Numbered from the stretch's first letter, positions 2,931-43,662 are shown. The stretch is DNA of 64,000 nt from Gammaproteobacteria bacterium (GCA_016744065.1 JADGFA010000020.1:4930-68929); one strand, 5' to 3'. A program made the numbers and translations. Notes: generated by a model not told the origin, from the letters alone.

Positions 2931-2948
2931 TTTACAGGTTATTATATT

Positions 2949-3695: not shown

Positions 3696-3699
3696 AAAT

Positions 3700-4905
3700 A
3701 TGAAATTGATTAATAACACATCGGCACTTTTTAGTTGCGGTTTTCGACCCTTTTTTTTACTCGCATCAATCTATGCCATTGTGTTAATTTTTTTCTGGGT
3801 ATTGTTCTGGAATGGTGTGATGATCTTGCCAGAAACCCTGGGCGGGCCTGTTGCATGGCATGTATATGAAATGCTTTATGGTTTTATGCTGGCGGTTATG
3901 CTGGGATTTATTAGCACAGCCATTTATGAGTTTGTGAGCTTTACAGGAATAAGTCGACAGCAACTTATGGCTCTGGTTTTATTATGGCTGCTGGGGCGTA
4001 TCAGTTTCTGGCTTTCTGGCATTGTGGGGCTTATTCCTGCTGCTGTATTTAATCTTACATTGCTCATGTATTTACTGGTTCTGTTAACACCGTCACTCTG
4101 GCGTGATCCCGGTCGCCCCCATATGAGTTTTATCTACACTTTTGTCGGGCTATTACTAATAGAGTGCGGGTTTTATTATAGTGCTTTAACCGGGCAAGCG
4201 GTGATGCCCTGGTTATATACCAGCATTGGTTTAAGCATGATTATGATTATTATAGCCATGAGCCGAATTTCCATGCGCGTTATTAATGGCATGGAAGAAG
4301 GTGTGCAATTATTTAAACAGGATGTAGAGTATCTGGCACGGCCACCCAGGCGTAAAATTGCTATTTTTACAATTGCACTTTTTAGCCTGGCAGAGCTAAT
4401 CATGCCGGGTAACTTAATTAATGGCTGGCTGGCACTGGCAGCAGCAGCCGCCATGCTTAATCTGTTAAATGACTGGCACATAGGTCGCCCATTATTTAAT
4501 CCCTGGGTGTTTAGCATGTATGCTGTGTACTGGTTAATGGCATCAGGGTATTTATTTATTGGCTTATCAATACTTTCAGATGTGCCAGAAATAAATGGTG
4601 CACGCCATTTATTGACCACCGGTGCAATGGGCCTGGCCATTTTTATTATTATGACGTTTTCAGGGCAGGTTCATACAGGTTATGGCGTAAATTACCGACC
4701 GTGGATTTTAATCAGTACACTGGCTATTTTAGTGGCAACACTTAGCCGGGTATTAATAGCCTGGCCAACAATGATGGAACACAGTGCATCTTTAATATTA
4801 ATTTCGAGTATTGCATGGATGCTTGCATTTAGTTTATTTATTATTTTTTTCTGGCGTCTGTTAACCGGCGCTGCGATTGATGGCAGGGAAGGCTGCCTGG
4901 ATTGA
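3700..4905 (+). CDS. nnrS: NnrS-family membrane protein
   Basis: 401 aa polytopic membrane protein. N-terminal ...LFSCGFRPFFLLASIYAIV... matches the characteristic FRPFFL start of NnrS (haem-copper protein of the NO stress response). ~12 TM helices. Confidence 0.6.
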   Translation: MKLINNTSALFSCGFRPFFLLASIYAIVLIFFWVLFWNGVMILPETLGGPVAWHVYEMLYGFMLAVMLGFISTAIYEFVSFTGISRQQLMALVLLWLLGRISFWLSGIVGLIPAAVFNLTLLMYLLVLLTPSLWRDPGRPHMSFIYTFVGLLLIECGFYYSALTGQAVMPWLYTSIGLSMIMIIIAMSRISMRVINGMEEGVQLFKQDVEYLARPPRRKIAIFTIALFSLAELIMPGNLINGWLALAAAAAMLNLLNDWHIGRPLFNPWVFSMYAVYWLMASGYLFIGLSILSDVPEINGARHLLTTGAMGLAIFIIMTFSGQVHTGYGVNYRPWILISTLAILVATLSRVLIAWPTMMEHSASLILISSIAWMLAFSLFIIFFWRLLTGAAIDGREGCLD

Positions 4906-5480: not shown

Positions 5481-5984
5481 ATGTCTGGCCTGAAAAATAG
5501 AATGTTAAAAATGAAACTTACATCTTATCAAAACAGTATCCGTCTACTTGCTAGCCTTGCATTTCTTATGTTATCTGCCTGTGGCACACCGGGTGGCGTT
5601 ATTCACTCTGGAACACACACTCAAAAGCATATAAAAATTACCGGTGGAAGTACTTCCGGTCAGTTATCGATTGAAAGATTAGAGCTAACCGATCAAAGCG
5701 GTAGAAATAGCTTTAATGTAGTTAAGGGGAAAAAAATAACCCCTTTGGCAACAATTAAATTTTCTGGCCGAGGCGTATTAACTGGTCAATGGCTGGTTGA
5801 TGGAAAAATAATTGAACAGATAAATGTTAATTTAAGTCATGGTTCATTGCTAAATTTAAGGCTTAAACCGTCAACGCGAATACCTGCCTTTATACCGGGC
5901 TCCCATAAATTACAGTTGAAAATTAATCAGCCCGCAGTGAATTTTAAGTACCCTGTATTGAAATTCTTTGTAACAGCCAAATAA
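5481..5984 (+). CDS. Lipoprotein, paralogue of the N-terminal domain of the adjacent giant protein
   Basis: Lipobox LMLSAC. Residues ~55-167 align with giant-protein residues ~45-150: IERLELTDQSGRNSFNV / VERIELSFPNNRASQTVNL; GQWLVDGKIIEQ / VRWKVDGRVISQ; GSHKLQLKI / GSHVVTLEL; KYPVLKFFV / PTIKYFV. Confidence 0.6.
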   Translation: MSGLKNRMLKMKLTSYQNSIRLLASLAFLMLSACGTPGGVIHSGTHTQKHIKITGGSTSGQLSIERLELTDQSGRNSFNVVKGKKITPLATIKFSGRGVLTGQWLVDGKIIEQINVNLSHGSLLNLRLKPSTRIPAFIPGSHKLQLKINQPAVNFKYPVLKFFVTAK

Positions 5985-6128
5985 ACAAATTATGTACTTT
6001 TAGCGAAAGTTAAATATCTGGTGTATTTAATAGCCAGGATAGAGAGTGATCCAGAATCCGTCTGGCCTCGCTTAAAATGATATGAAATAAAATGTATTTT
6101 CAGGAAGATGAGAATAATTTAAAGAGGA

Positions 6129-9100
6129 ATGGTTTTGTTTGCAATAAATATAAGATTTATATTTTTATCTCTAGTTATAGGTCTTATACCTGCATATAGC
6201 TCCGCATCAATAGATATTAGCGTTGATGTAACCGGCACTGACAGGGGGGCATCTAGCGCCGCCAGCAAGGTTTTTGTAGAACGCATTGAACTTAGTTTCC
6301 CTAATAACCGCGCATCGCAAACGGTTAATTTAAACAGCAAAAAATTATATGCCAGAGCAAAATTTAAATACCTGGGTAATGGCCCATTAATTGTTCGCTG
6401 GAAGGTGGATGGTCGTGTTATTTCACAAAGCTCCGAAATTTTAACCTTTGGCAAAGAAGTTGAAATTCGTTCAGATAAAAATAAAACCTTTTTACCTACT
6501 TATCAACGTGGTTCCCATGTTGTTACTTTAGAGTTGCGTAATAGTAGTGGCTTAATTGATGTAACAGTACCCACTATCAAATACTTTGTAGCCGATGGTG
6601 TAGCGGGGCTGGAAACGGATACACCATTAAGGCTAATGTATCCTTCTGCAGCACAGGTCGATCCAGCCAAAGTTTATTTTCGTTGGCAGGGTCAGTCCTT
6701 ATTTAAAGCTTACTCTATTGAAGTGCAGCGCATAGCCAGCAAAACGGTCAGCGCAGCAACACTTATAAAGGCCATCAGTGATATTGATGTTTATTCCCCT
6801 ACAGATAAAACACGCTCAGAGTTTGTAGCCGCTGATTATCGTTGGCGGGTTAAGGGTATATATCAGGGTAAGAAATTAAAACCCTTAACATCTAAGTGGG
6901 CAAATTTTAGTGTGTCTAATGATGCATTATCTGGTGGCTTATTTATTCGACAGATTAGTGCAGAAACATCCATTTCTGATACAGGTTTATCTGCACAGTC
7001 TTTGCAGATAAAGCAGCAAATTATAAATAATTCACAGCGATTAATATCCCCTCAACATGTGGTTTCTCAGGGCAATATTACAGCGGGAAGTGGTTATCAA
7101 TTAAATATTGAGTTGCAGAACTCAGGCTTTATTGATGCGAATAATGCCGCAGTAGAAGTGCATGATCACTCAGGGTTAATAGGTCGATATCCAGTGACTG
7201 CAGCGGTTAATAATAATGTATCTGTTTTAATTTCGTTAGATGCAGATAGTAACAACCAGATCAGTTATGAAAATTTAAATATTATTTTATTAAATAATAA
7301 CCATGTTATAGATGAAGGTGCAATTAACTTAACCATCAGTCCTGAGTTACGTTTAGATGCACTAGATTTTGATGAAATAAATACTCAGCTAGGCGAAGTA
7401 GTTGCCATTGCTAACCCTTGTGGTAGTACATCTCCTGCGCATAATTTAGCTTTTAGTCGTATGGTTTCTGCACGATCACTACAATCTACACAATCTGTAT
7501 TAGACACGGGATCTTTTACCTTTGTAAAAAATCAGAATATAGAGTTCACAGCTTACTTAAAAGATAAAGGCCTGGGCAACTGGTTTGCATCATCACGCAA
7601 TAATTGCGGGATTTCACCCTTATCGCCTTTTGATCGTAGAGCATTAAACGATGAAATTGATGACTTACTGGCATTAGTTCAGCAATGTTATTCAGAGCAT
7701 ACAGGTAATAACCCTGATAAAAGCTGTAAGAACCAGATCAATGCATTAAGTGCAGCTCAGGAGCAACGTAATCAGGATGATATTTATAATGGTAATGCTT
7801 TTCATCTACAGTTTATTGCACATCCTTTAGACCAGTATGGCCAGCTATCAGGTGAGCCGATTGAAATCGGTCAGGTTACAGTTAATAAAAATAATGATGG
7901 TTTAGTAAAAAGTCCTTTCTGGAAAGTTCCTGAATCAGGTCAATATAAAATAACGTTAAATGACATTAGCGAACCGGTTGATTTGTTTGCAACCAATATC
8001 AATGGTCTGCCTAAATATATACATGCAGGTGGATTTGTTTTAGAGCTGGATCAAGTACATTCAAGCTCTGATATAACGAATATGAATCCGCGCCAGGCCA
8101 GTATTAATGGTGTGGCTTATACCCACTGGGCAGGTGATAGCTCACAACAAAGGTTATTACTGGATTTAGATAATGTATCCGTCACAATGCAGGCAAATCC
8201 GCTACATGGGGTTTTAAGTGGGGGTGAACTTAATTTAAAAGAAAACCAGTCAATTACATTGGCGTTAAAAGATGTATCCATGCAATTAAACCAGTTGCAA
8301 TTAAATATTAGCGGCGCAATAGCTGATCTGGCATATAAAATGCCGGGTTATAACCCCAGTATGTTTTCTAATATAACTTCATATTCGTTCACTAAAGGTG
8401 GAAAAGGTGAAGTAATACAAAATTCTATACCCAATAATGGCAACATTAAATTTCAGCAGTTGAAAATATTTAATGGCGGTGAATTTGTTGCACGTTATGA
8501 TTTTGACAATAGTTGGGCTGATACACGTTTAAATAATGATGATTTAGCACTTCGTTTAAAAGGTAGCACGCTAGTTATTGATGCCTCAAAGCATTTTAGT
8601 TTTACTGACTACACCAGTGAAGAAGAGTTTACTGGTATGGGATTTTATAATGCACTTGTACGGCTTAAAGTAAATAACTCAAATGGATTGTTTAGCTTAG
8701 TTGATGCAGAGCATGGGTTTATTTATGGCCGAGCTAACTGGTTAAATTATTCAGAAAACAATGTAAGTGGTGAAAATATTGAAGTGGTTTCAGCAGTGAA
8801 TGTTGCTGATTTTTTTAATCAGACAGTTGCTACTGAATTTGAGTTATTGCAGCCATTTGGCTTTAAGTTAAAAATAACAGGGGGTGTTTTTAGTCTTGAA
8901 GATTCACAGATTGGTGGACTAGACCTGTCCGGTTCAGTAAATTTACCTGGCAGTAATGATAGCGATGAGAATGCATTGTCCCATGTTATCTCTAATCATG
9001 AGTTTGTTTTTCAGCACTTGCATCGTCGAGCTTCAGCTACCGGTGTGAATTTGTTTAGTACTGAATTAGTCGATGATTCATCAATCAATTTCTCAGTTGG

Positions 9101-19982: not shown

Positions 19983-19984
19983 CA

Positions 19985-21337
19985 ATGAAAAATATGAAAA
20001 AATTAAAGGCTTTAGTTATCCCTGAATATATTTGTCGAAAACTTAATGAGTGTGAATCGAAATCTGTAGAATACGCTAACAGTAGTCTGGTGCTAAATAT
20101 ATTTATACGAAAATTGATATTAGCATCTATTGTTTTTTTTCTACCCATCAATGCATTCGCAGATATCACGGGATTTCAGGTGAAATCCACAGAAAAATCA
20201 ATTTTTTTAAAATGGCATAAAACCGATAAAATAATCAGTTTGTATCGTAAGGCATATCAGTTACCCATAGCATGGGAAAAGCAGAAAAGTAAAAAAATAG
20301 ATAAAGGCGAAAAAATTGCAGAATTAAAATCAGGTGAATCAGAATATATAGACAATAATGTAAAAGAAAATACACGATATTATTATCGACTTCAATATGC
20401 CAACGATAAAAAAACGACTTTATCTTCTGCTCTGGTTTCATCCTTAAAAGACACAACGCCACCTGATGCAGTAAAAATAAATACCGCAAAAGCAGTTAAT
20501 TACAGTAAGCTGATATTAAACTGGAGCGCAAGCAAATCACCCGATGTGGTTGCATATCGAATTTATCGATCACAAAAAAACACATCACCAAAAATAATAA
20601 AAATAGTAAATTTTAATAACAAAAGCAGCAAACAAATAACCACAGAAATACTACAGAAAAAGAATGCTCAAATTGAATATAATTACTTTATTTCCGCAGT
20701 AGATGGCGCGGGAAATGTATCCCCATTATCAAGCTCAATTGCATTGCAGTTACCCGATACAATTGCACCTCAATCACCGTTGCAGTTAACCGCAACACAA
20801 ACAGAAAAGGGTCTGGAGTTACACTGGCTAGCTGATCTTGTAAATGATGTATCTGGTTATGCTGTGTATCGCAAAAGCAGTAATGACGAAACATTTAAAA
20901 AACTAAATAATGACTTGATTTATACACCTGTTTTTATCGATACAGAAATACAGGCTAATAAGAAATATCGTTACCGTGTCGTCGCAATCGATCAATTCGG
21001 AAATGAAAGCAAACCGACTAAAGGTTTGCTGGTTTTTATAAATAATAAATATTTTAGTGTTATTGCTCCAGATAGTTTTCTCATTACTACAACACAACAG
21101 GGAAGACCTGCCTTAAACTGGGCATTAAAAAATAATCAGTCAATTTCAGGTGTTATTGTACTGCGCAGTGAAGGTGATGGTTTTAAGGTGGTTTCTAAAC
21201 TGCTTAAAAATAATGCCTTTGTCGATGATTCCGTTAAGCTTAACCGCAGTTATAAATATAAGCTTAAAACCCTGGCGACCAATGGAGAACAATCGGTTGG
21301 TTCTAATGTGGTGCTGTGGAAAGGGGCAATGAAATGA
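19985..21337 (+). CDS. Secreted protein with ~4 fibronectin type III-like domains
   Basis: 3-nt gap after the giant gene. Internal signal-like segment LILASIVFFLPINAFA, so the true start may be downstream of 19985. FN3 hallmarks: ...LNWSAS..PDVVAYRIYRS..., ...LHWLADLVNDVSGYAVYRK...YRYRVVAIDQFGNES... Confidence 0.65.
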   Translation: MKNMKKLKALVIPEYICRKLNECESKSVEYANSSLVLNIFIRKLILASIVFFLPINAFADITGFQVKSTEKSIFLKWHKTDKIISLYRKAYQLPIAWEKQKSKKIDKGEKIAELKSGESEYIDNNVKENTRYYYRLQYANDKKTTLSSALVSSLKDTTPPDAVKINTAKAVNYSKLILNWSASKSPDVVAYRIYRSQKNTSPKIIKIVNFNNKSSKQITTEILQKKNAQIEYNYFISAVDGAGNVSPLSSSIALQLPDTIAPQSPLQLTATQTEKGLELHWLADLVNDVSGYAVYRKSSNDETFKKLNNDLIYTPVFIDTEIQANKKYRYRVVAIDQFGNESKPTKGLLVFINNKYFSVIAPDSFLITTTQQGRPALNWALKNNQSISGVIVLRSEGDGFKVVSKLLKNNAFVDDSVKLNRSYKYKLKTLATNGEQSVGSNVVLWKGAMK

Positions 21338-22398
21338 AATGGCTTGTTAACCCATCTTCTTCTAGATTCCTGTCTGTTTTATTAGCTATATTATCAAGTG
21401 TATCGCCATTAAAATCTGAAACACTGTTAACTCTGCCTGGGTTTACAGCAACAGCCAACATACAATTAGAGAATAACCCTGATGAAAGCCTGGTTTACGT
21501 TTCTGGCACCGTTAAAAAAATAAATACGCCGTCAGCAGAAAATATAATTGCCCCCAATATAACCGTGCGTTTCTGGCAGCCAGAAAATCCGGGCTCTTAT
21601 GTTACCGCAATAACAAATGAAAATGGTGTGTATACCATTGGTTTAACAGAAGGGGCCTGGCAGGGAGAGGCCTGTGGTTCTGATGCAGCTTACTATCCGT
21701 CAAGCTGGCAAGTGCTGGTGCAGGATAAAAAATTATTACAGTTACAGGCACATGATCAAAAAACAATTGAGCTGGATATGTTAACGCCAAGTAACCTTAT
21801 TAATCAACATAATACGGTAACCCTGACAGGGCGTGGATTTGGCTGTAATGGATCACTGGTTTTTACCTATTCCAATTCAGTTGATATTTGTAACAAGTCT
21901 TCAGATATCGAGTATGACCATGAAGTTATAACGTTAAATGATTTTTCATATCGCACTGATACGCAATTGCGTTTTGCTATGCCAGAGCTTTCAGACGTAC
22001 GCGATGTACACAAACACATTGCTTATGTTCGATACCAGCAGGGTAATTATAAAAGTCGATACATTGGTATTGGTGAAATGGTTTTGGCATCACAGTCCTC
22101 GAATGTGATTCTTTGTCAGGGTGGGCAAGTAGCTAACCAGTCTAATGTTGCCATATTAAACGGCACCCTGGGAATGCAGGGCATTGTCACTCAGATTGGA
22201 GGAACTGCTTTTAATAATGCTGGAGCAGGGGTTGTATCCGGTGTTGTTGGTGATACGCATCTGGGTGGCGGTAATAACCCGCAATTGACAGGCAGTGATT
22301 TTGCATCGGAAATGAGTTTTCAAAATTTAGAAATTGAGGGTGTGTCTGGCATCATGCAGTTTAATGGACAAGTGCCAAATATGGAGTTAAATCAATGA
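21334..22398 (+). CDS. Secreted protein, possible carboxypeptidase-regulatory-like (transthyretin-fold) N-terminal domain
   Basis: Overlaps the preceding stop, suggesting translational coupling. Signal peptide MKWLVNPSSSRFLSVLLAILSSVSP. VSGTVKKI...ITVRFWQPENPGSYVTAITNENGVYTIGL resembles a CarbopepD_reg/Cna-B-like beta-sandwich. Confidence 0.5.
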   Translation: MKWLVNPSSSRFLSVLLAILSSVSPLKSETLLTLPGFTATANIQLENNPDESLVYVSGTVKKINTPSAENIIAPNITVRFWQPENPGSYVTAITNENGVYTIGLTEGAWQGEACGSDAAYYPSSWQVLVQDKKLLQLQAHDQKTIELDMLTPSNLINQHNTVTLTGRGFGCNGSLVFTYSNSVDICNKSSDIEYDHEVITLNDFSYRTDTQLRFAMPELSDVRDVHKHIAYVRYQQGNYKSRYIGIGEMVLASQSSNVILCQGGQVANQSNVAILNGTLGMQGIVTQIGGTAFNNAGAGVVSGVVGDTHLGGGNNPQLTGSDFASEMSFQNLEIEGVSGIMQFNGQVPNMELNQ

Positions 22399-24581
22399 GA
22401 GTACTTTTGTTTTTAGGCTTATCGTATATGATGTTGCCTGTTGTATCTCATGCTGAGATAAAGCAATCAGTTATGCAGGGGCAGCGTGTTGAATTATATC
22501 AGGTTGATGATATTTCTATTCAGTTTGCTAATTTATTTTATCGATTAGAGGGAAGCCAGAAATTTATTCAACAGCCTTTATCAAGAAAGGGTAGTCAATG
22601 GTCTGCACAGCTTAAAGGGCATCAAGTACGTGTTCCTGGTATTGAGTATTATGTTCAACTGACATATAAAAATGGGTCGATAAAAACAGATCCGCCGGCT
22701 CATCCTGAATATAATCCAGAGCGTTTAAGTGTAAATACACTATCTACAGACACAATTCATATTACTAATATGAAAAACAATAAAAATGATAGCATTGAAT
22801 TTATAGTTAATGGTTATGTAGATACTGAAACACGCGTATTTATGGGTGATACTGATATTACAGATATGATGCGCCGTGATAATGATAAATGGACATTAGA
22901 AAATGTAAGTCAGCTATTTGATGGTCCGCAGTCAATTCAGCTAGTTAACACGCAGGGTAATACCATTGCCAAAAGTGCAATAAATATAAGTAATTCTGAT
23001 GAAACGCCCGCTGCTAAAAATGGAGAATTCGTTTTACGCGGTAGTGCCAGTTTTAATATTGGGGGGCAATCGGATGATGATTCAACTACAGATGAATCAT
23101 TAGTCGTTACAGGTAATTTACACATAGAAACAGAATATACTCACAATGATTTTTCTTCTCACTTTTCTGGCGTTGATGTTAATTATGATCATAGTGCCGA
23201 TAAAGAATTCGATTTATCGTCAGGATTTTTATTTACCAATAGTTATAAAAAAACATCACTGGAATTAGGTGATGTGAATGTTAAAGGTACGCCTTTAGTT
23301 CTGTCGGGGTTTTCTCGTCGTGGTTTTGTCGCAGCGACAGAAGGTGAAACATGGAAGGGATCTGTGTTTAATGTAAGAACCAGCACGGTGGATGGATTTG
23401 AATCGGGTATATCATTTGATGACAGGCAAACCTATGGTGCATCGTATGAACAGACAATAGGTGATTCAGGCAATACAAATATTCAGATATCAGCCGTAAG
23501 CGGTGACTTACAACAGCCAGAAACCAGTAATGTAGGGTCTGCAAACACAAATGCACAGGCTGGTGATACATTGGGTTTATTAGTTTCATCAGAGTATGCA
23601 GGTGTCAATATTAATGCGGAGCTAGCAAGTTCTAAATTTGATCTAGATACAAATGATGTCAATAATGCGGTGTCTGATGAGGCCTATGAAGTTCACTTCA
23701 CAAAAAACATTTATGGCTTGGCCTCGTCTTTAGGTTATCAACATTATGGTGCAAATTATGCCACCATTGCAAACCCGAATTTCTCCGGTGATAGAGAGGG
23801 GTTAAATTTATCCTTTGGCAGTAACTGGAAGGCCGTTAGCTGGACAGCTTCACTTTCAAGTATTGAGGATAATGTGGATAATGATCCACTGCGCCCAGTG
23901 GTTACATCTGATAATGCAGGCTTAAGCCTGGATTTTGTTATTGAAAACTGGCCAGCTATTAATATTGGTTTTAATCTAACGAACCAGTCATCTGATAATG
24001 AACCAGATGCAACTGCTGAAGTGGACAATAAAGGCCATGATGTATCATTAGGTTTATCGAATAGTTTTGATGCTTACAACCTGGCCTGGAGCAGTTCTAT
24101 TGGTGAATTAAATAACAAACTGGACGTAACTAATGACAGTGAAACCTCCAGTCATTCTTTAACCATGGGTTATAACTTTGATGCTGCCGATGTTAATTTA
24201 AACCTGTCACAGAATAAAAATGAAACAGATTTTATTCTGACTTCAAATTTAGCTAATCTTTCATTAAATATACCTCTTTTTTCTGACAATGTGGTTTTAA
24301 ATACGCAATTTTCAGCGCAACAGAATGAGGCGGATAATAATTCACAGAATAATGAAATTATTGGCGGCAGTGCCAGAGTTTCCTGGACTTTACACGATAT
24401 TATTATTTTTAAGTCGATGGACTGGGTTAACCCACAGTTTGGTATTAGCTGGACTATGAACAAAACATCAGATCAGATAGATAGCAGTCTGAATGAGTCT
24501 GACAGCACCATTATGTTTGACTTTAGTTTTGGTGCACCAATCAGCTTTGAACAACGTTGGCAGTTTGATGATGAAACTTAA
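22395..24581 (+). CDS. Putative outer-membrane beta-barrel protein (728 aa)
   Basis: 4-nt overlap with the upstream gene. Signal peptide MRVLLFLGLSYMMLPVVSHA. C-terminal ~450 aa made of short alternating hydrophobic/polar strands separated by D/N/S/G-rich loops (LSLDFVIENWPAINIGFNLTN..., SHSLTMGYNFDAADVNLNLSQ...). Ends ...RWQFDDET. Confidence 0.45.
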   Translation: MRVLLFLGLSYMMLPVVSHAEIKQSVMQGQRVELYQVDDISIQFANLFYRLEGSQKFIQQPLSRKGSQWSAQLKGHQVRVPGIEYYVQLTYKNGSIKTDPPAHPEYNPERLSVNTLSTDTIHITNMKNNKNDSIEFIVNGYVDTETRVFMGDTDITDMMRRDNDKWTLENVSQLFDGPQSIQLVNTQGNTIAKSAINISNSDETPAAKNGEFVLRGSASFNIGGQSDDDSTTDESLVVTGNLHIETEYTHNDFSSHFSGVDVNYDHSADKEFDLSSGFLFTNSYKKTSLELGDVNVKGTPLVLSGFSRRGFVAATEGETWKGSVFNVRTSTVDGFESGISFDDRQTYGASYEQTIGDSGNTNIQISAVSGDLQQPETSNVGSANTNAQAGDTLGLLVSSEYAGVNINAELASSKFDLDTNDVNNAVSDEAYEVHFTKNIYGLASSLGYQHYGANYATIANPNFSGDREGLNLSFGSNWKAVSWTASLSSIEDNVDNDPLRPVVTSDNAGLSLDFVIENWPAINIGFNLTNQSSDNEPDATAEVDNKGHDVSLGLSNSFDAYNLAWSSSIGELNNKLDVTNDSETSSHSLTMGYNFDAADVNLNLSQNKNETDFILTSNLANLSLNIPLFSDNVVLNTQFSAQQNEADNNSQNNEIIGGSARVSWTLHDIIIFKSMDWVNPQFGISWTMNKTSDQIDSSLNESDSTIMFDFSFGAPISFEQRWQFDDET

Positions 24582-24605
24582 TAAAAATTTAAATATGGAA
24601 GTCTT

Positions 24606-27251
24606 ATGAGTTTAATAAATAAACTAACAATTATGTTTTTAATACTGATTATCAGTGCCTGTTCATCTGAGTCATCAGAAAATGACTCAAAAGAAGGCCT
24701 GGCAAGTATAAAAGTCAGTATACCTGGTCTGGAAAATAATAAATTTATCAATAAAACCAGTTTGGGTGAATCATCACAGGCAATAGATAATGCCAGTGTT
24801 CCGGCTGAAGTTGATTCAATTATAATAGATGTTCTTGATAACCGATCTAATGTTTTAGATGCTGCCGATATACTGGCCAATAATGGTGAAGTCACTTTAA
24901 ACATTGTAGCGGGCAAAAATTACACCGTCAGGGGCAGGGCTTTTGCAAATAATGAAGTTTTATTTTCAGGTACAAGTGAAATTGATTCAATTGTGACGGG
25001 TGATCGAATTTCAGTAAGTCTTTCATTACTCGATCAGATACAACTATCATTGACGGCTTTTGCTAATACACCTGTAGGCACCGCTGAAACTGACGTATCA
25101 TTTAACTTAAACGGTTTAAATGATATTTCAATAAACTGGTACATTAATGGCATTCTGGGAGGCAACGCTCAATTTGGCACTATTAATACAGCTGGTCAAT
25201 ATACAGCACCATCGATACTTCCACTTAACACAACAATAACGGTGACCGCTGAACCTGTTAATGCACCTTCATTTGCTCAGTCGTTTACTTTTCAGTTGTT
25301 ACCCGCTATTAATATTCCCCCGGTTGCTAATGCTGGAGCTGATGTAATGGTAAATGATGGAATCACAGTTAACCTTAATGGTAATGCAAGTACTGATATT
25401 GATGGCACTATTAGTACCTATAGCTGGCTAAGAATATCCGGTGATTTTAATCCCGTATTAAATGTTGTTAATTCCACGACAGTTAGTTTTACCTCTCCAG
25501 CCATGCAGTTCGGTGGAGCAGCAACCTTCAGGCTAACCGTAACAGATAATGAGGGTGCAACTGACACAGATGATGTAATCATTACAGTTAATGGCACGGA
25601 TCAACCTTTGCTTGCCAATGCGGGGCCCGATCAAACGGTAAATGAAGGTGATTCAGGCATTACACTAACAGCTAGTGCCAGTACCGATCTGGATAATACA
25701 ATTACAGGCTATCTATGGACACAGCTGTCAGGTACTTCTGCTTTATTATCCAGTACATCTGCTGTCTCACCAACTTTTGTAGCACCTGATGTGAGTATTG
25801 ATGAAAATTTAGTTTTTCAGTTAACGGTCACCAATGATGCTGGTTTGCAAGATACAGATACTGTTACTATCAGGGTTAATAACACAGTAGTGACTACCGA
25901 GAAAATTTATTTTTCTGCACTTTCAACAGGGTTTAATCAAAATATATGGGTAACTGATGGCACTGCTCCGGGCACATTTCAGTTAGCATCCGTGGCGGTT
26001 GAAAATAATGAATTTGCACGTTTTGAAACTCTCAATAATGATTTGTATTTTCAGGGAAATGATGGTGTTAACGGACGTAAATTGTGGCGCACCGATGGTA
26101 CATTAGTTGGTACTGAGTTAGTGGTATTAGATGATGGCTCTGTAACGAATGTAGACCCTAATAATTTTGCAGTACTGGGAGACTTATTATTGCTTGGGGC
26201 TAATACCTCTTTTAATGGTTCATTTAATATACCTGAATATATTTCACTTAATAGCACTAATGATGTAATAACGCCTTTATTTAATAGTCGGCCCACAGGT
26301 GGTTATGGTGTGCATAATAATGAGCTTGGAAAAATGGATGGCTTTATTTATTTTAACGATACGACCTTTACACCCTTAGTTAGCACCAACCTCTATCGTA
26401 CCGATGGCATTAATGCTGCTACGAGTATTGCAACTGGTTTTTTTGATACTCGTATGACAGAGTTTACCGAGTTCAATAATGAACTGTATTTTGTTGTTGG
26501 TCAAAAAGAGCTCTGGAAAACAGACGGTACAAATTTAGGTACTGTTTTATTAAAAACGTTTAGTGGTCATGTCGGCTATTCCTCATCATCGAGCTTAAGC
26601 GGGGTTTATAATGGCGGCATGATCGTATTTAATAATCAGTTATTTTTTGTTGCTGATGATGGGCAGGGAAGTGAGCTTTGGGTCAGTAATGGTGTAAGTG
26701 GCAATAGCCCGGATACTCTACTGATTAAGGACCTGGATAATAATACCAGCACATCTTCCTACCCTTATGAATTTAGAGTGGTTAATGGTAATTTGCTTTT
26801 CTTTAGTGCAGAAGGTGATGCCAGTACCGATGGGTTATGGATTACTGATGGCACATCGGTTGGTACTACACGGCTTCGGGCATTATCTGTAGGCAATACG
26901 GACAGCAGTTATTTTACTCAGGGTTACGATACAGCCGTACCAACTGTTGTAAATATTAGTAGTCAGGATTTATTATTTTTTGTCGCAAATGATGGCATAA
27001 CAGGTAATGAACTATGGGTAACAGATGGAACTGTGGGCGGTACTAATCTGGTAAGTGATATCAATAGTAGTAGTCACAGTTTTCCTGCTATATTTAAGGC
27101 AGGTAATAATAAATTGATATTTTCTGCACAAGATGATGATGGGCGTGCAAAACTATGGCAAACCGATGGTACCGCAATCGGTACCTCTTTAATACTTGAT
27201 ATATGCCCTGGCTGTTTTGGGCAAGGTGCATTTTTCAGGCCTGCAGGATAA
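24606..27251 (+). CDS. Lipoprotein with tandem PKD/Big-like domains and C-terminal ELWxxDGT repeats (881 aa)
   Basis: Lipobox LIISAC. Repeated PVANAGADVMVNDGITVNLNGNASTDIDGTISTYSW / LANAGPDQTVNEGDSGITLTASASTDLDNTITGYLW modules. Then >=7 repeats of the type ELWVTDGT, KLWRTDGT, ELWKTDGT, GLWITDGT, KLWQTDGT (the ELWxxDGT beta-propeller-like repeat). Confidence 0.7.
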   Translation: MSLINKLTIMFLILIISACSSESSENDSKEGLASIKVSIPGLENNKFINKTSLGESSQAIDNASVPAEVDSIIIDVLDNRSNVLDAADILANNGEVTLNIVAGKNYTVRGRAFANNEVLFSGTSEIDSIVTGDRISVSLSLLDQIQLSLTAFANTPVGTAETDVSFNLNGLNDISINWYINGILGGNAQFGTINTAGQYTAPSILPLNTTITVTAEPVNAPSFAQSFTFQLLPAINIPPVANAGADVMVNDGITVNLNGNASTDIDGTISTYSWLRISGDFNPVLNVVNSTTVSFTSPAMQFGGAATFRLTVTDNEGATDTDDVIITVNGTDQPLLANAGPDQTVNEGDSGITLTASASTDLDNTITGYLWTQLSGTSALLSSTSAVSPTFVAPDVSIDENLVFQLTVTNDAGLQDTDTVTIRVNNTVVTTEKIYFSALSTGFNQNIWVTDGTAPGTFQLASVAVENNEFARFETLNNDLYFQGNDGVNGRKLWRTDGTLVGTELVVLDDGSVTNVDPNNFAVLGDLLLLGANTSFNGSFNIPEYISLNSTNDVITPLFNSRPTGGYGVHNNELGKMDGFIYFNDTTFTPLVSTNLYRTDGINAATSIATGFFDTRMTEFTEFNNELYFVVGQKELWKTDGTNLGTVLLKTFSGHVGYSSSSSLSGVYNGGMIVFNNQLFFVADDGQGSELWVSNGVSGNSPDTLLIKDLDNNTSTSSYPYEFRVVNGNLLFFSAEGDASTDGLWITDGTSVGTTRLRALSVGNTDSSYFTQGYDTAVPTVVNISSQDLLFFVANDGITGNELWVTDGTVGGTNLVSDINSSSHSFPAIFKAGNNKLIFSAQDDDGRAKLWQTDGTAIGTSLILDICPGCFGQGAFFRPAG

Positions 27252-27253: not shown

Positions 27254-27895
27254 ATGACACCGTATTCACTGACGATAGTAGAAGATGAAACAATAGTAAG
27301 GGAGCGTCTGGTTAAATTAATTACCGAGCACTCTCAATTTAATTTATTGGGTGCAGCGGCTGATGTGGCAGGTGGTATTGCTGATTTAATAAAATACAGT
27401 CCAGATATTCTATTAACCGATTTAGGTTTACCCGACGGTTCGGGGATTGAAATTATTAAAGCAATTGAAATTAATCACCTTGATACTGAAGCTATGGTTA
27501 TTTCCGGATTTCAGGATGAGCATAATGTATTTAATGCACTGCAGGCGGGTGCCAGCGCTTATATTCATAAACACGATAAAAACCAGAAAATAACCGATGC
27601 TATTTTATCTATGATGCAGGGGGGGGCGCCTATAAGCCCGGTTATTGCGCGATTGATGCTACAGAAATTTCAAAAACCACAGCCTGTTAAACAATTACCA
27701 GAAGCATTAACTGAACGACAGATAAAAATATTAAAGCTGGTAAGTCAGGGGTTTTCATCAAAAGAAATAGCTGAAAAACTTAATATTAGTTATTACACAG
27801 TGACCACGCATATTAAGAATATTTACAATAAGTTGCAGGTTAATAGTCGGACTGAAGCCTTGCATGAGGCGGTTAAACTGGGTTTGCTGGAGTAG
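27254..27895 (+). CDS. Response regulator, NarL/FixJ (LuxR-type HTH) family
   Basis: REC domain (IVEDE...LLTDLGLPDGSG). C-terminal LuxR HTH (LTERQIKILKLVSQGFSSKEIAEKLNISYYTVTTHIKNIYNKL). ATG at 27254 chosen over the 27203 track start, which overlaps the upstream gene. Confidence 0.85.
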   Translation: MTPYSLTIVEDETIVRERLVKLITEHSQFNLLGAAADVAGGIADLIKYSPDILLTDLGLPDGSGIEIIKAIEINHLDTEAMVISGFQDEHNVFNALQAGASAYIHKHDKNQKITDAILSMMQGGAPISPVIARLMLQKFQKPQPVKQLPEALTERQIKILKLVSQGFSSKEIAEKLNISYYTVTTHIKNIYNKLQVNSRTEALHEAVKLGLLE

Positions 27896-28887: not shown

Positions 28888-30753
28888 ATGTGGTTGAGTA
28901 ATACTAAAAGCAGTGCATTTATATTTTTATTTGTTTACTGGTTAGCTTTTAATTTTCTGGTGCTTCATACACCTTTCACCGTTTTTAACTCACCCGATGT
29001 GAGTGCAATTAATTATGTGCAGTATATAAACAGTAATGCACAATCCCCTGACGAAATAAAACAACAAAACTGGCAAACCATATCGCTACCAGATGACTGG
29101 TATAACAATCATAAAAACATAAAACAGGTATGGTACAGAGCTAACTTAACTTTGGATAAAGACAGTGAAGAGCAGGTCTGGGCTGCTTATCTGCCCTCAG
29201 TAACCCATAATGCGGCTGTATATATTAATGGATTCTGGGTAGGACAGGGCGGGCAGTTTACTGATCCGGTTTCCCGCAATCAAAATAAACCTTTGTTATT
29301 TAGCTTTTCATCAAAATTATTACATCAGGGCAACAATCAAATAGATATAAGAGTTAAGGCCGCATTTTTTGAGCAGGGTTTAATGGATGAGTTTTACCTT
29401 GCTCCCGAGTCCCAGTTACATGATGCCTATGTATGGAAAAAAATCATACGTGTTGACCTGGTTCGCTGGATGACGATGGTTATGTATGTACTGTCATTAA
29501 TTGTTTTTGCATTCTGGTTAGCTCGTCCGCAGGACAGTATTTACGGCCTGTTTGCATTAGAACTGTTTATCTGGGCAACACATAATTTAAATTTATTTGT
29601 ATCAGATATTCCTGTATCAGTTAGTATCTGGGAAGCCATGACCATAAGCACACTTGGCTGGACGGTGGTTGCGATGATATTTTTTAATCATCGATTTGTT
29701 GGTGAGAAAAATATTATTGTAGAAAAAGTAATTGTAGTTTTTTCTGTACTCGGTATAGGTATATTTTTTCTTCCTGATATAAGTAGCATTATGCATATTG
29801 GCTATAGCATATGGGATGCATTCGTTATGATTTTTGGTATTTATGCCATTGTTCATCTTATAAGGGTATATCAGCATAAGGGTGATTCTGATGTGTTTTT
29901 GATGTTAGTGGTGGGCATACCTATACTGGTTTTTGGTTTTCATGATATCTTGATGATCAATCACTTCATTGATAGACGTGACGGCTTGACTATTCAGTTT
30001 AGCGTTATACCTTCAGTAATATTATTTAGCTGGTTTCTTGTGCGTCGATTTGTACAGTCAATTAATAAAGCAGAACACCTGGCTGAAACATTAGAGCAAC
30101 GAGTCAATGAAAAGCAGCAGGAATTACAGTTACAGTACGAAAAATTAAAATCGATGGAAAAAGACAGTATTCTTTCAGAAGAACGGGAACGCATTATGCG
30201 TGATATGCACGATGGTATCGGAGGGCAGTTAGTCTCTGTTGTTATGATGTTACAGGAACAGACAGGCGAGGTATTTACCCATGTATGTGAAAAAGTACAA
30301 CACAGTTTAACTGATTTACGTTTTGTAATTGACTCGTTAGATCCCTTATTAAGTGACCTTCCTACGCTGTTAGGGATGATGCGTATACGCCTGGTTGACC
30401 AACTGGAAGCGGCAAACATTGAGCTGGAATGGGCCGTTACTGAACTACCCGAAGTGGCAAACATGAGCCCTCGACGTAGTTTGCATATTATGCGAATAGT
30501 GCAGGAAGCGATAACCAATAGCATAAAACATTCAGGTTCTGAAAAAATGACATTAGCTACAGGCGTAATAAACGATAATATTTATATAGATGTAATAGAT
30601 TATGGAAAAGGATTTAAATCGTCTGAAAAAAATGAGGGCAGGGGCATTAAAAACATGCATTACCGTGCTCAGCAATTAAAAGCAGGCCTGGAATTTAATT
30701 CATTAACTAATGGGGTGTCTATTCGTTTATTGCTTGGTATTAATACTAAATAA
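28888..30753 (+). CDS. Sensor histidine kinase, 7TMR-DISM type with HisKA_3/HATPase_c
   Basis: N-terminal signal + periplasmic domain (7TMR-DISMED2-like). Seven TM helices (residues ~200-400). H-box ERERIMRDMHDGIGGQL typical of HisKA_3 kinases that partner NarL-type regulators. C-terminal HATPase G-boxes (VIDYGKGF). Confidence 0.8.
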   Translation: MWLSNTKSSAFIFLFVYWLAFNFLVLHTPFTVFNSPDVSAINYVQYINSNAQSPDEIKQQNWQTISLPDDWYNNHKNIKQVWYRANLTLDKDSEEQVWAAYLPSVTHNAAVYINGFWVGQGGQFTDPVSRNQNKPLLFSFSSKLLHQGNNQIDIRVKAAFFEQGLMDEFYLAPESQLHDAYVWKKIIRVDLVRWMTMVMYVLSLIVFAFWLARPQDSIYGLFALELFIWATHNLNLFVSDIPVSVSIWEAMTISTLGWTVVAMIFFNHRFVGEKNIIVEKVIVVFSVLGIGIFFLPDISSIMHIGYSIWDAFVMIFGIYAIVHLIRVYQHKGDSDVFLMLVVGIPILVFGFHDILMINHFIDRRDGLTIQFSVIPSVILFSWFLVRRFVQSINKAEHLAETLEQRVNEKQQELQLQYEKLKSMEKDSILSEERERIMRDMHDGIGGQLVSVVMMLQEQTGEVFTHVCEKVQHSLTDLRFVIDSLDPLLSDLPTLLGMMRIRLVDQLEAANIELEWAVTELPEVANMSPRRSLHIMRIVQEAITNSIKHSGSEKMTLATGVINDNIYIDVIDYGKGFKSSEKNEGRGIKNMHYRAQQLKAGLEFNSLTNGVSIRLLLGINTK

Positions 30754-30765
30754 ATACTTATATTT

Positions 30766-30794
30766 AACCATTAAAAATGGAGAATTTAATGGTT
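30766..30794 (+). terminator. Perfect 10-bp inverted repeat (AACCATTAAA-n9-TTTAATGGTT) just after the kinase stop. No U-tract.
   Basis: Read directly from the sequence. AT-rich stem and no trailing T-run, so a weak or intrinsic-terminator-like hairpin at best. Confidence 0.3.
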
Positions 30795-30963
30795 AGTAAA
30801 AATGTACAGATTCAGTATAAGGTTCCATGGATTTATGTCTGATCTCTTATATGTGATTTAGTGATATAATCTTATCCAGTCTTTAGCTTCTTGGTGCTAC
30901 GGTATCTATGTTATTGCAGTTTTTCATGTTCATTGTTTTTTACAGATAAACTTTATCGTTTTA

Positions 30964-31260: not shown

Positions 31261-31421
31261 AGTGCTTTCCTTGCGTCTTTCATTACAGACATGCGATATG
31301 CTACCATTTTTAATTTTTGTACTAGTTGATATAATGTCATTGGTTCAGTTATTGTAAGTAAGAAATGTCCTTTTTTCTTTTTATCAGGCATGAACTTCAT
31401 ATGTTGTGATATAAGCGAGGA

Positions 31422-31820: not shown

Positions 31821-31852
31821 ATAAAACTCCGTTCTAGCTGATAAGTGTTAAT

Positions 31853-34490: not shown

Positions 34491-34503
34491 TACGAGAGAG
34501 ACT

Positions 34504-36296: not shown

Positions 36297-36328
36297 TCAC
36301 TTGCTATGTTTCGTCAAAGCTTTAAATC

Positions 36329-37990: not shown

Positions 37991-38015
37991 CTTAATTTTA
38001 TAACGAGGAAGTTCA

Positions 38016-43615: not shown

Positions 43616-43662
43616 AATTAAATTGAATAACAACATTACAAAAGCAGAGTTAAACCAAAAAT

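What the first reader, a model, noticed from the sequence alone, without database searches (positions are those of the whole stretch)
5481..27251. ~21.8 kb co-directional cluster built around a non-repetitive 4617-aa secreted giant protein with dedicated envelope partners
A 4617-aa Sec-signal protein is followed at 3-nt, overlapping, overlapping and 24-nt spacing by four genes. These encode a multi-FN3 secreted protein, a secreted beta-sandwich-like protein, a 728-aa putative outer-membrane beta-barrel, and an 881-aa PKD/ELWxxDGT surface lipoprotein. A paralogue of the giant protein's own N-terminal domain precedes it as a separate lipoprotein.

The giant protein is not a repeat-built adhesin. 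Its >2000-aa central region is helical and low-complexity-free, flanked by beta-rich ends. It has no RTX, cadherin, Big, YD or haemagglutinin repeats. It has no T1SS C-terminal signal and no TpsB or autotransporter partner.

The architecture is a large secreted helical 'shell' protein plus an outer-membrane barrel plus lipoprotein and FN3 accessories. This does not match any named secretion or adhesin system I recognise. It is a candidate for a new surface-assembly or toxin-delivery machine.
Basis: partly seen in the sequence, partly recalled or inferred. Interest (0 to 1): 0.9.

Follow-up and report, generated by a model that had tools for sequence, protein, structure and literature searches.

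The report
Orphan giant envelope protein with dedicated barrel
An uncultured marine bacterium carries a conserved gene cluster for a 4617-residue, non-repetitive exported protein with no recognisable relatives, its own very large outer-membrane barrel, two lipoproteins and two small beta-sandwich proteins; it fits no described secretion or adhesin system, so it may be a new kind of cell-envelope machine.

Summary
All ORFs lie at the stated coordinates, are tightly packed, and carry Sec or lipoprotein signals.

**The giant.** It has no hit in Pfam, NCBIfam, PDB sequences, PADLOC or PHROGs. It has no internal repeats, even by profile-profile comparison. An exhaustive HMMER scan of 1.84 billion representatives found only about 11 relatives. 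All are 4188-4854 aa and all come from metagenomes or MAGs.

**Synteny.** The same gene types recur in at least 7 further independent loci, down to 20% giant identity, with the order permuted in distant ones:
- a small lipoprotein paralogous to the giant's N-terminus;
- the giant;
- an FN3 protein;
- a two-beta-sandwich protein;
- a barrel;
- an Ig-repeat plus beta-propeller lipoprotein.

**The barrel.** The 728-aa protein models (pLDDT 79) as two Ig-like domains plus a barrel of about 26 strands. It resembles MtrB, LptD and ushers only generically.

**The handle.** The giant's first ~400 aa are shared with shorter cargo proteins in sister systems, where the lipoprotein's domain is fused to the barrel. 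The one giant lacking this handle also lacks a barrel nearby.

**Best reading (inferred, ~0.4).** This is a new barrel-centred export or anchoring module for a giant surface protein. The giant itself was never folded, so its function is open.

The parts
5481..5984 (+). g0: 167-aa lipoprotein (lipobox LSAC|G) made of one Ig-like 'handle' domain, paralogous to the giant's N-terminus
   Evidence: BLASTP against giant aa 23-154 gives 29% identity, E 6e-14. The HMM of alignment A4 scores E 2e-49. Lipoprotein orthologues precede the giant in L012, L013, L016 and L009. In sister system L010 the domain is fused to the barrel's N-terminus.
6129..19982 (+). Giant protein, 4617 aa, with a Sec signal peptide (aa 1 to about 25). 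It is an orphan family.
   Evidence: ORF. No Pfam, NCBIfam, PDB, PADLOC or PHROGs hit. Only 14 hits among 1.84e9 representatives, of which 11 are giants of 4188-4854 aa. Collinear at 43% identity over 4579 aa with the giant of L004/L006. Signal peptides are present in all 12 family members, and 12 Cys columns are conserved.
6204..7328 (+). Giant aa ~26-400, the N-terminal 'handle': a g0-like Ig domain, an FN3-like domain and a CARDB-like domain
   Evidence: hhalign of A5 against the 831-aa protein of L010 gives probability 99.6, E 1.5e-23, over giant aa 21-396. That protein's matching segment hits Pfam CARDB. The handle matches L009 y238 at 40% identity, E 1.5e-45. It is missing only in P0046, whose locus lacks the barrel set.
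7326..10328 (+). Giant aa 400-1400: a beta-rich region that holds most of the family's invariant residues
   Evidence: Invariant residues are dense here. Beta periodicity. Profiles A7 and A8 find nothing in PDB.
10326..12458 (+). Giant aa 1400-2110: helical region I. It includes the family's most conserved stretch, the Gly/Ala-rich aa 1436-1512.
   Evidence: 69% identity to the L004 giant in aa 1401-1500. Helical periodicity. Profile A11 finds nothing in PDB.
12456..13988 (+). Giant aa 2110-2620: a non-helical (beta or mixed) insert
   Evidence: Periodicity. Profile A12 gives only a weak cerebellin/C1q hit, E 0.0037, with no stretch passing on its own.
13986..18713 (+). Giant aa 2620-4195: helical region II. 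Its aa 2700-3500 portion is the fastest-evolving part.
   Evidence: 24-35% identity to the L004 giant in aa 2700-3500, against roughly 40-69% in the first 2100 aa and at the C-terminal end. Helical periodicity.
18711..19979 (+). Giant aa 4195-4616: a conserved beta-rich C-terminal domain ending in WGGW...C..C
   Evidence: Alignments A9 and A10. The BPIFA1 (6baq_A) hit at E 3.6e-4 with 5 sequences falls to E 0.21 with 12, so it is not robust.
19985..21337 (+). g2: an exported multi-FN3 protein, the giant's most constant neighbour
   Evidence: Pfam fn3, E 5.7e-12. It lies directly downstream of the giant in every locus read that includes that side, including L015, which lacks the other partners. 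The start may be the GTG at 20090.
21334..22398 (+). g3: an exported protein with two beta-sandwich domains (CarboxypepD_reg-like and IPT/TIG-like) and a variable tail
   Evidence: Alignment A13. Family members give weak Pfam hits: TIG 1.2e-4 and CarboxypepD_reg 1.9e-4. Conserved in L005, L006, L008, L011, L012, L013 and L016.
22395..24581 (+). g4: an outer-membrane protein with a signal peptide, two N-terminal Ig-like domains (aa 25-198) and a barrel of about 26 strands (24-28; aa 211-723)
24606..27251 (+). g5: an 881-aa lipoprotein with a conserved N-terminal ~320 aa, two PKD domains and seven ELWxxDGT repeats (probably a beta-propeller)
   Evidence: Orthologue in L006 at 49% identity and in L010 at 48%. 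In L008, L012, L013 and L016 only the N-terminal region is conserved, and the rest is replaced by cadherin, Calx-beta, FG-GAP or PD40 modules. Absent in L005.
27254..27895 (+). LuxR/NarL-type response regulator, 2 nt after g5
   Evidence: Pfam Response_reg and GerE. 75% identity in L006 and 69% in sister system L010, at the same position.
28888..30753 (+). Membrane sensor kinase: an N-terminal sugar-binding-like domain, several hydrophobic segments, HisKA_3 and HATPase
   Evidence: Pfam and NCBIfam hits. 59% identity directly after the regulator in L006; 29% identity on the opposite strand in L013. The intervening 236-aa ORF at 28020-28730 has no homologue in any related locus and is not counted as a part.

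Best explanation
**What is shown.** This is a conserved, previously undescribed cell-envelope gene module of uncultured, mostly marine, Gammaproteobacteria. Every component is exported. The giant and its 11 aligned family members carry Sec signal peptides and conserved cysteine pairs, so they fold in an oxidising compartment. g4 is an outer-membrane barrel of about 26 strands with two N-terminal Ig-like domains. g0 and g5 are lipoproteins. The six gene types co-occur across loci in which the giants have diverged to 20% identity.

**What is inferred.**
1. The giant's N-terminal ~400-aa 'handle' (a g0-like Ig domain, an FN3-like domain and a CARDB-like domain) is the module that couples the cargo to the barrel complex on the periplasmic side of the outer membrane.
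2. The g0 lipoprotein is a free copy of the same Ig domain, and in sister systems that copy is fused to the barrel's periplasmic N-terminus. It probably acts there as a docking or priming partner through Ig-Ig contact.
3. After Sec export, the rest of the giant is passed through, or lodged in, the wide barrel and displayed on the cell surface. The handle stays behind as a retention plug.
4. The FN3 protein (g2) and the two-sandwich protein (g3) serve as periplasmic escorts or stalk pieces.
5. The g5-type lipoprotein (Ig repeats plus a beta-propeller, variable between lineages) is a surface-exposed binding partner.
6. The adjacent LuxR-type two-component system controls expression.

**Net function proposed.** A dedicated, barrel-centred export-and-anchoring system for one giant surface protein, probably used for contact with particles, surfaces or other cells.
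For: **Export signals.** All products carry export signals.

**The barrel.**
- Model and fold class. The nearest structures are the largest single-chain barrels, which hold or pass macromolecules: MtrB, LptD, FimD/PapC.
- The family C-terminus ends in WQF.

**Co-occurrence of the gene set.**
- L006: giant, FN3, g3, barrel, g5, response regulator.
- L013: g0, giant, FN3, g3, barrel, g5-like.
- L005: four-gene core.
- L008.
- L012 and L016: barrel, g0, giant, FN3, g3, g5-like.
- L011: barrel, giant, FN3, g3 at 20% giant identity.

**The handle as a transferable coupling module.**
- It heads an 831-aa protein next to a barrel in L010 (probability 99.6).
- It heads a protein cut off by the contig end, next to a barrel and a g0 gene, in L009.
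- In L010 the g0 domain is fused to the barrel's N-terminus (38% identity, E 2e-22). By established outer-membrane-protein topology, that end is periplasmic.
- 11 of 12 giants carry the handle. The one that lacks it (P0046, homology starts at aa 437) sits in a locus without barrel, g0, g3 or g5.

**Pattern of conservation.** The ends are conserved and the helical middle evolves fast. This is the pattern expected of an anchored, exposed protein.

**Regulator.** The response regulator is conserved at 69-75% identity beside both giant-type and sister systems.
Against: - No experiment or structure shows where the giant ends up. It could stay in the periplasm.
- A disulfide-bonded, largely helical 500-kDa protein is an awkward substrate for passage through a barrel without an energy source. 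Known Sec-dependent barrel exporters (TPS, ushers) rely on beta-rich folding or polymerisation outside the cell.
- The handle-barrel co-absence rests on a single locus, and only 10 kb on each side was seen.
- g5 is not universal, and g0 was not seen in L011.
- Barrel similarity to MtrB, LptD and ushers is generic (TM-scores below 0.5).
- The giant was never folded.
Confidence: 0.4

Rival explanations
1. **Periplasmic or outer-membrane-tethered scaffold.** The giant never crosses the outer membrane. It is a periplasmic structural or protective protein tethered under the barrel and g0 through its handle, with the FN3 and beta-sandwich proteins as further periplasmic parts. The barrel is an anchor or an unrelated conduit.
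For: - The g0-type domain is periplasmic where it is fused to the barrel (plus established outer-membrane-protein topology).
- Conserved Cys pairs fit periplasmic folding.
- No energy source or known translocation motif is present.
- The giant's length is strikingly constant at 4188-4854 aa, as expected of a structural ruler or scaffold.
Against: - A barrel of about 26 strands is an expensive anchor.
- The partner g5-type proteins carry PKD or cadherin repeats and beta-propellers, which are typical of surface-exposed binding proteins.
- The fast-evolving helical middle suggests exposure to the environment.
Confidence: 0.22
2. **Uptake or capture complex.** The barrel is an import channel for a large substrate, by analogy with SusC or MtrB. 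g5 is its surface binding lipoprotein. The giant is an extracellular or periplasmic capture or processing scaffold. A kinase with a sugar-binding-like sensor domain switches the complex on.
For: - The kinase has a weak Glyco_hydro_2_N-like sugar-binding match.
- The g5-type lipoproteins resemble the binding lipoproteins of uptake loci.
- The source is a bone-degrading biofilm rich in polymer degraders.
Against: - The g4 family has no plug domain, TonB-box family signature or Pfam TonB_dep_Rec hit.
- No hydrolase, lyase or peptidase domain or motif appears in any component.
- No inner-membrane transporter is conserved with the set.
Confidence: 0.12
3. **Toxin or effector delivery.** The giant is a large pore-forming or Tc-like toxin. 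Its conserved Gly/Ala-rich helices (aa 1436-1512) insert into target membranes. The barrel releases it and g5 binds the target.
For: - The most conserved stretch of the family is a Gly/Ala-rich amphipathic segment.
- The protein is large, helical and non-repetitive, like TcA, lymphostatin and the large clostridial toxins (my own knowledge, not tested).
Against: - No Pfam or NCBIfam toxin domain is found: no TcA/VRP1, no glycosyltransferase, no protease, no RHS/YD partner.
- Known toxins of that kind are not Sec-dependent.
- The conserved segment contains regularly spaced charges and barely reaches a transmembrane-like hydrophobicity.
- No immunity-like gene is conserved.
- The hosts appear to be free-living biofilm, sediment and vent bacteria.
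Confidence: 0.08
4. **Lipid or hydrophobic-molecule transfer.** The giant's C-terminal domain has a BPI/TULIP-like fold and handles lipid or lipopolysaccharide at the outer membrane.
For: A 5-sequence profile of aa 4195-4617 hit BPIFA1 (6baq_A) at E 3.6e-4. A conserved Cys aligned to the BPI-family Cys.
Against: - The hit falls to E 0.21 with a 12-sequence profile.
- No Pfam LBP_BPI_CETP hit appears in any of the 11 giants scanned, the window's and the 10 of alignment A6.
- Only about 85 residues align.
Confidence: 0.04

Closest known systems
Two-partner secretion (type Vb: TpsA exoprotein plus TpsB barrel)
   Same: A very large Sec-dependent exoprotein is encoded beside its own outer-membrane barrel. 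A conserved N-terminal module of the cargo is the likely recognition element.
   Different: The barrel has about 26 strands and Ig-like N-domains, not a 16-strand Omp85 barrel with POTRA domains. The cargo has no TPS (Haemagg_act) domain and is not a beta-helix repeat protein. Four further conserved partners exist.
Chaperone-usher pathway (FimD/PapC ushers)
   Different: There is no Usher (PF00577) or PapD-like chaperone family match. The cargo is one 4617-aa chain, not polymerising pilins. The structural match is generic (TM about 0.3).
MtrCAB porin-cytochrome complex
   Different: No CXXCH haem motif appears in any component. There is no sequence similarity.
LapA/MpIBP-type giant adhesins retained in their outer-membrane pore by an N-terminal retention module (T1SS)
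   Same: A giant surface protein proposed to be held in an outer-membrane channel by a folded N-terminal module.
   Different: Those adhesins are Sec-independent, repeat-built and RTX-containing. They are exported by ABC/MFP/TolC components with LapG/LapD control. None of these features is present here.
LptD-LptE (barrel plus lipoprotein plug)
   Same: A 26-strand barrel is the top Foldseek hit by E-value. A small lipoprotein partner (g0) could sit at or in the barrel.
   Different: There is no OstA/LptD family match and no beta-jellyroll N-domain. The TM-score is only 0.24.

Membership tests
Two-partner secretion (T5bSS) | TpsB partner: Omp85-type 16-strand barrel with POTRA domains (Pfam ShlB/Bac_surface_Ag, POTRA_2) | tested here: not met
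   g4 and its 33 homologues have no Pfam domain. The model shows about 26 strands and Ig-like N-domains.
Two-partner secretion (T5bSS) | N-terminal TPS domain (Haemagg_act) and beta-helical repeats in the cargo | tested here: not met
   No Pfam hit in the giant or in 10 homologues. No internal repeats.
Chaperone-usher pathway | Usher family barrel (PF00577), PapD-like chaperone and pilin subunits | tested here: not met
T1SS RTX/LapA-like giant adhesins | RTX nonapeptide repeats, a C-terminal secretion signal, no Sec signal, and neighbouring ABC/MFP/TolC genes | tested here: not met
   The window's giant has no GGxGxD motif, and the other 11 have none or one. All 12 have Sec signal peptides. 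The only ABC transporter nearby is an NMT1/SsuA-type importer.
Tc toxin complex (TcA/TcB/TcC) | TcA domains (VRP1, TcA_TcB_BD, neuraminidase-like) and an RHS/YD-repeat TcB-TcC partner | tested here: not met
   No such Pfam or NCBIfam hits in the giant, its homologues or its neighbours. The fold itself was not tested.
MtrCAB-type porin-cytochrome | Multihaem (CXXCH) periplasmic and surface partners of a 26-strand barrel | tested here: not met
   The barrel size class is met. No component has a CXXCH motif.
TonB-dependent / SusC-like transporters | N-terminal plug domain (PF07715) inside a 22-strand TonB_dep_Rec barrel | tested here: not met
   No Plug or TonB_dep_Rec hit. The N-terminal domains model as beta-sandwiches outside the barrel.
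ELWxxDGT repeat proteins (TIGR04534), for g5 only | Tandem ELWxxDGT repeats of about 47 aa scoring above the NCBIfam cutoff | tested here: met
   214.7 bits against a cutoff of 65, 7 repeats. The family has no described function, and no paper in the held library mentions it.
BPI/TULIP lipid-binding fold (giant C-terminus) | Sequence or structural match to LBP/BPI/CETP/PLUNC domains | tested here: inconclusive
   BPIFA1 scores E 3.6e-4 with a 5-sequence profile and E 0.21 with 12 sequences. No Pfam hit.
Known anti-phage defence or phage structural modules | Match to PADLOC or PHROGs families | tested here: not met
   PADLOC gives none. PHROGs gives only generic FN3/PKD matches to tail proteins.

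The most novel reading that the evidence does not exclude
The cluster encodes a new type of Sec-dependent outer-membrane export and anchoring system. It would be defined by three things: a barrel of about 26 strands with Ig-like periplasmic domains; a small Ig-domain lipoprotein (free or fused to the barrel); and cargo proteins recognised through a homologous N-terminal Ig/FN3/CARDB 'handle'. The system would be modular. It would serve ~830-aa cargoes in sister systems and a structurally novel, non-repetitive ~4600-aa helical surface protein here.
Probability: 0.35. Interest if true: 0.9.

Novelty: categorically new. Interest (0 to 1): 0.74.

Why it matters
Nearly all giant bacterial proteins are repeat-built adhesins or NRPS/PKS enzymes. 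This one is a 4.6-kaa, non-repetitive, constant-length protein family with no recognisable domain, and it is tied to its own unclassified barrel of about 26 strands. If the barrel-handle coupling is real, it adds a new route for placing very large proteins at the Gram-negative cell surface.

It also supplies a portable targeting handle and a new class of large outer-membrane barrel. The sister systems, which have the same barrel, handle and regulator but small cargoes, offer a tractable entry point.

The giant's fold is likely to be new structural territory. Even if the function proves mundane, the family gives a defined, testable gene set for an abundant kind of metagenomic 'dark matter'.

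Tried and rejected
**Searches and jobs that failed or found nothing**
1. A full-length giant query to the search for homologous proteins timed out.
2. The aa 1-1400 query found only a frameshifted fragment from the same organism as L004.
3. The aa 1381-1680 query found nothing, not even itself, although the giants are in the collection. The word index evidently does not surface them.
4. A single-sequence AlphaFold2 run on g4 was useless (pLDDT 31). It cost one of the two structure jobs. The second went to g4 with an alignment, so the giant was never modelled.
5. The afdb50 fold library was unavailable.
6. Profile searches of five giant tiles and of the g0 domain against PDB sequences gave nothing robust. 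The BPIFA1 lead did not survive a deeper profile.
7. Pfam on 10 other giants gave zero hits.
8. I tested whether the small proteins of sister system L010 are detached pieces of the giant. hhalign of all giant tiles against all accessory proteins matched only the handle. This idea is rejected.
9. The promoter and terminator scans, Rfam and the tRNA search found nothing above chance.
10. Literature searches for ELWxxDGT and for new barrel-dependent secretion of giant proteins found nothing relevant.

**Explanations considered and rejected**
- Assembly or ORF artefact. The ORF is intact in two assemblies, and homologues have the same length.
- Repeat adhesin, T1SS, TPS, usher, Tc toxin, porin-cytochrome, TonB transporter, defence system and prophage. 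See the membership tests.
- g7 (28020-28730) as a system component. It has no homologue in any related locus.

Full report
**1. The observation**

Junctions are tight:
- giant to g2: 2 nt with the longest g2 ORF, although a GTG at 20090 would give a cleaner signal peptide;
- g2 to g3 and g3 to g4: 4-nt overlaps;
- g4 to g5: 24 nt.

A LuxR/NarL-type response regulator begins 2 nt later (27254-27895), and a HisKA_3 sensor kinase lies at 28888-30753.

Translations show these export signals:
- a Sec signal peptide on the giant, g3 and g4;
- lipoboxes on g0 (LSAC|G) and g5 (ISAC|S);
- an internal signal peptide on g2.

The upstream genes are an NMT1-type ABC importer and NnrS. The downstream genes are a TelA/DUF350/spermidine-synthase set. 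Both sets are unrelated to the cluster. G+C content is unremarkable across the cluster.

**2. The accessory proteins**

- **g2** has FN3 domains.
- **g5** has two PKD domains and seven ELWxxDGT repeats (TIGR04534, 214.7 bits).
- **g3** family members give weak CarboxypepD_reg, IPT/TIG and NOMO1-like beta-sandwich hits.
- **g4** has no family hit, but 33 unnamed homologues were found, none with a Pfam domain.
  - With that alignment, AlphaFold2 gives a pLDDT-79 model. It has a signal helix, two beta-sandwich domains (aa 25-198) and a barrel with 28 DSSP strand elements, which I read as about 26 strands (aa 211-723).
  - Foldseek ranks the largest single-chain barrels first: LptD, MtrB (TM 0.44/0.49) and FimD/PapC. 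All TM-scores are below 0.5.
  - The family consensus ends in WQF, a typical outer-membrane-protein C-terminal signature.
  - g4 is therefore a real, very large outer-membrane barrel of no described family.
- **g0** is a paralogue of giant aa 26-154 (29% identity, E 6e-14). A profile of the domain finds only these two copies in the window. It gives only insignificant Ig-like hits in PDB and Pfam.

**3. The giant**

Database hits:
- It has no Pfam, NCBIfam, PDB-sequence, PADLOC or PHROGs hit.
- Ten other family members also have no Pfam hit.

Sequence features:
- Self-BLAST finds no internal repeat. hhalign between all non-adjacent 300-aa profile tiles finds none at probability 50 or more.
- Low-complexity sequence is nearly absent.
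- It has no CXXCH, HExxH or RTX motif.

Size of the family:
- An exhaustive HMMER scan with aa 1301-2500 against 1.84 billion cluster representatives found 14 proteins. Eleven of them are giants of 4188-4854 aa, including the query itself, and the rest are fragments.
- The family is therefore real, extremely rare, and constant in length.
- A 12-sequence alignment (A5) shows Sec signal peptides in all members and 12 conserved Cys columns. This indicates folding outside the cytoplasm.

Variation along the chain:
- Compared with the L004 homologue, identity peaks at 69% in a Gly/Ala-rich stretch (aa 1401-1500). It drops to 24-35% in aa 2700-3500.
- Crude hydrophobic periodicity suggests beta for aa 1-1400, helical for 1400-2100, mixed for 2100-2620, helical for 2620-4200 and beta for 4200-4500. 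This is the only support for the 'helical centre'.

Tile profiles against PDB sequences found nothing robust. One hit of the C-terminal tile, to BPIFA1 at E 3.6e-4, faded to E 0.21 with a deeper profile.

**4. Conservation of the gene set**

Related loci were reached through a genome scan, a metagenome scan and look-ups of g4 and giant homologues.

| Locus | Giant | Gene content, in order |
|---|---|---|
| L006 (uncultured gammaproteobacterial MAG) | 43% identity, collinear over 4579 aa | giant, FN3, g3, barrel, PKD-ELWxxDGT lipoprotein (49%), response regulator (75%), kinase (59%) |
| L013 | P0039, 4578 aa | g0-like lipoprotein, giant, FN3, g3, barrel, cadherin/PD40 protein whose first 325 aa match g5 |
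| L005 | 4564 aa | giant, FN3, g3, barrel, then unrelated genes |
| L008 | cut by contig end | giant end, FN3, g3, barrel, PKD/Calx-beta protein |
| L012 | P0044, 4854 aa | barrel, g0, giant, FN3, g3, g5-like |
| L016 | P0045, 4643 aa | barrel, g0, giant, FN3, g3, g5-like |
| L011 | P0049, 20% identity | barrel, giant, FN3, g3 |

The set therefore survives deep divergence and rearrangement. g5 is the least constant member: only its N-terminal ~320 aa are conserved. g7 (28020-28730) has no counterpart anywhere.

**5. The handle**

Distant g4 homologues (28-33% identity) sit in sister systems without a giant.
- **L010.** The barrel carries a g0-type domain fused to its N-terminus (38% identity to g0, E 2e-22). 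The next gene is an 831-aa protein whose first 344 aa align to giant aa 21-396 (hhalign probability 99.6, E 1.5e-23). That protein hits Pfam CARDB at its aa 254-342. The locus also has small CarboxypepD_reg-like proteins, a g5 orthologue (48%) and the same regulator (69%).
- **L009.** The order is barrel, then a g0-like lipoprotein, then a protein starting with the handle (40% identity, E 1.5e-45) and cut off by the contig end.
- **Handle presence.** Of the 12 giants, 11 carry the handle. The exception is P0046 (4188 aa), whose homology starts at giant aa 437. Its locus (L015) has only the FN3 gene, with no barrel, g0, g3 or g5 within 10 kb.
- **Rest of the giant.** No other part of the giant matches any accessory protein.

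The handle is thus a transferable N-terminal module whose presence tracks the barrel set. The FN3 protein tracks the giant itself.

**6. Mechanism (inference)**

The N-terminal extensions of outer-membrane barrels are periplasmic (established topology). The g0-type domain therefore works on the periplasmic face. I propose these steps:
1. The giant is exported by Sec.
2. It docks through its handle to g0 and the Ig-like domains of g4.
3. It is threaded into or through the wide barrel.
4. It is displayed at the surface with the handle as a retention module.
5. g2 and g3 act as periplasmic escorts.
6. g5-type lipoproteins act as variable surface binders.
7. The two-component system controls expression.

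I put this at about 0.4. The main rivals are these:
- a purely periplasmic scaffold (0.22);
- an uptake or capture complex (0.12);
- a toxin (0.08);
- a BPI-like lipid handler (0.04).

The weakest point of the preferred model is energetic. No known Sec-dependent barrel exports a disulfide-bonded helical protein of this size.

**7. Comparison with known systems**

Functionally, the nearest analogies are these:
- two-partner secretion (cargo plus a dedicated barrel, with an N-terminal recognition module);
- the chaperone-usher pathway (a large barrel with Ig-like domains and Ig-like cargo modules);
- MtrCAB (a 26-strand barrel sheathing a protein, plus a surface lipoprotein);
- LapA-type adhesins (an N-terminal retention module).

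Every membership test that could be run failed:
- no POTRA/Omp85, TPS domain, usher, PapD-like chaperone, RTX or T1SS genes;
- no Tc domains, haem motifs or plug domain;
- no PADLOC or PHROGs match beyond generic FN3/PKD.

Only g5's ELWxxDGT repeats belong to a named family, and that family is uncharacterised. No paper in the library mentions it.

**8. Source and novelty**

The window comes from a 71-kb scaffold of a marine bone-degrading biofilm metagenome (SAMN14086998; Borchert et al. 2021, PMC7883544). Relatives come from other metagenomes and MAGs. The few that carry a name are labelled only Gammaproteobacteria. The neighbours of L015 look like those of an anaerobe.

I rate the cluster as categorically new at the level of system families. 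The caveat is that the giant's fold is untested and could still reveal a known kind. Interest is 0.74. The gene set is unusual and well defined, and its sister systems make it testable. Its function is inferred only, and all hosts are uncultured.

Noticed in passing
L010:508-13030 (ENA ERZ23486430 ALNE18-1 scaffold_959); also an 81.7-kb JGI 3300072015 contig (no DNA held): A sister system without a giant. It has a barrel with a fused g0-type domain, an 831-aa handle-plus-CARDB protein, six small secreted proteins of 106-351 aa (three with CarboxypepD_reg-like ends), a PKD-ELWxxDGT lipoprotein (48% identity to g5) and the same LuxR regulator (69%). It is probably the more tractable relative of the system.
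   Followed up: partly
L015:10001-24271 (NCBI GCA_016208165.1, JACQYL010000013.1): A 4188-aa family member that lacks the ~400-aa handle. It is accompanied only by the FN3 gene, and its neighbours look like those of an anaerobe (AFOR, rubrerythrin). The family may therefore extend beyond Gammaproteobacteria.
   Followed up: partly
L009:3780-6959: In this sister locus a 1059-aa STAND ATPase with Trans_reg_C and BTAD domains precedes the barrel, instead of the LuxR two-component pair. Regulators differ between lineages.
   Followed up: no
window 19985-20090: The longest g2 ORF has about 40 residues ahead of its signal peptide. A GTG at 20090 would give a canonical signal peptide and a 107-nt gap after the giant. 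The homologue in L006 also has an N-terminal extension.
   Followed up: partly
window 28020-28730: A 236-aa secreted protein lies between the regulator and the kinase. It has no family hit and no homologue in any related locus. In L006 the kinase follows the regulator after a 321-nt gap with no ORF of 90 aa or more.
   Followed up: yes
window 108-767 (- strand): A 219-aa ORF with a sub-threshold PEP-CTERM match at its C-terminus (E 0.0045, 17.5 bits against a cutoff of 20.7). This hints at an exosortase system in this organism.
   Followed up: no
window 33912-41006: A co-directional set of genes: an unknown 192-aa ORF, TelA, DUF4178, an unknown 553-aa ORF, a double DUF350 protein, a spermidine-synthase-like protein and a 153-aa ORF. 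From memory it resembles the E. coli yjf-type stress cluster. This was not tested.
   Followed up: no
window 30000-34000 and 42000-52000: Stretches of markedly lower G+C (0.33-0.35, against 0.38-0.43 elsewhere) with many small ORFs. One has a weak DUF5675 hit in the same region of L001. A 616-aa protein without any family lies at 48408-50258, next to a hybrid histidine kinase. This could be island or phage-remnant DNA.
   Followed up: no
L003:180-6213 (ENA ERZ1283888 k141_251806): P0001 (1879 aa) is the N-terminal part of the L004/L006 giant (99.8% identical). It ends in a frameshifted tail, which is likely an assembly or sequencing error rather than a shorter family member.
   Followed up: yes
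The search for homologous proteins versus listing of cluster members: The word-indexed protein search never returned any ~4600-aa giant, not even the query's own protein. Yet these sequences are in the collection and were found by the exhaustive HMMER search. Very long proteins seem to escape that tool.
   Followed up: partly
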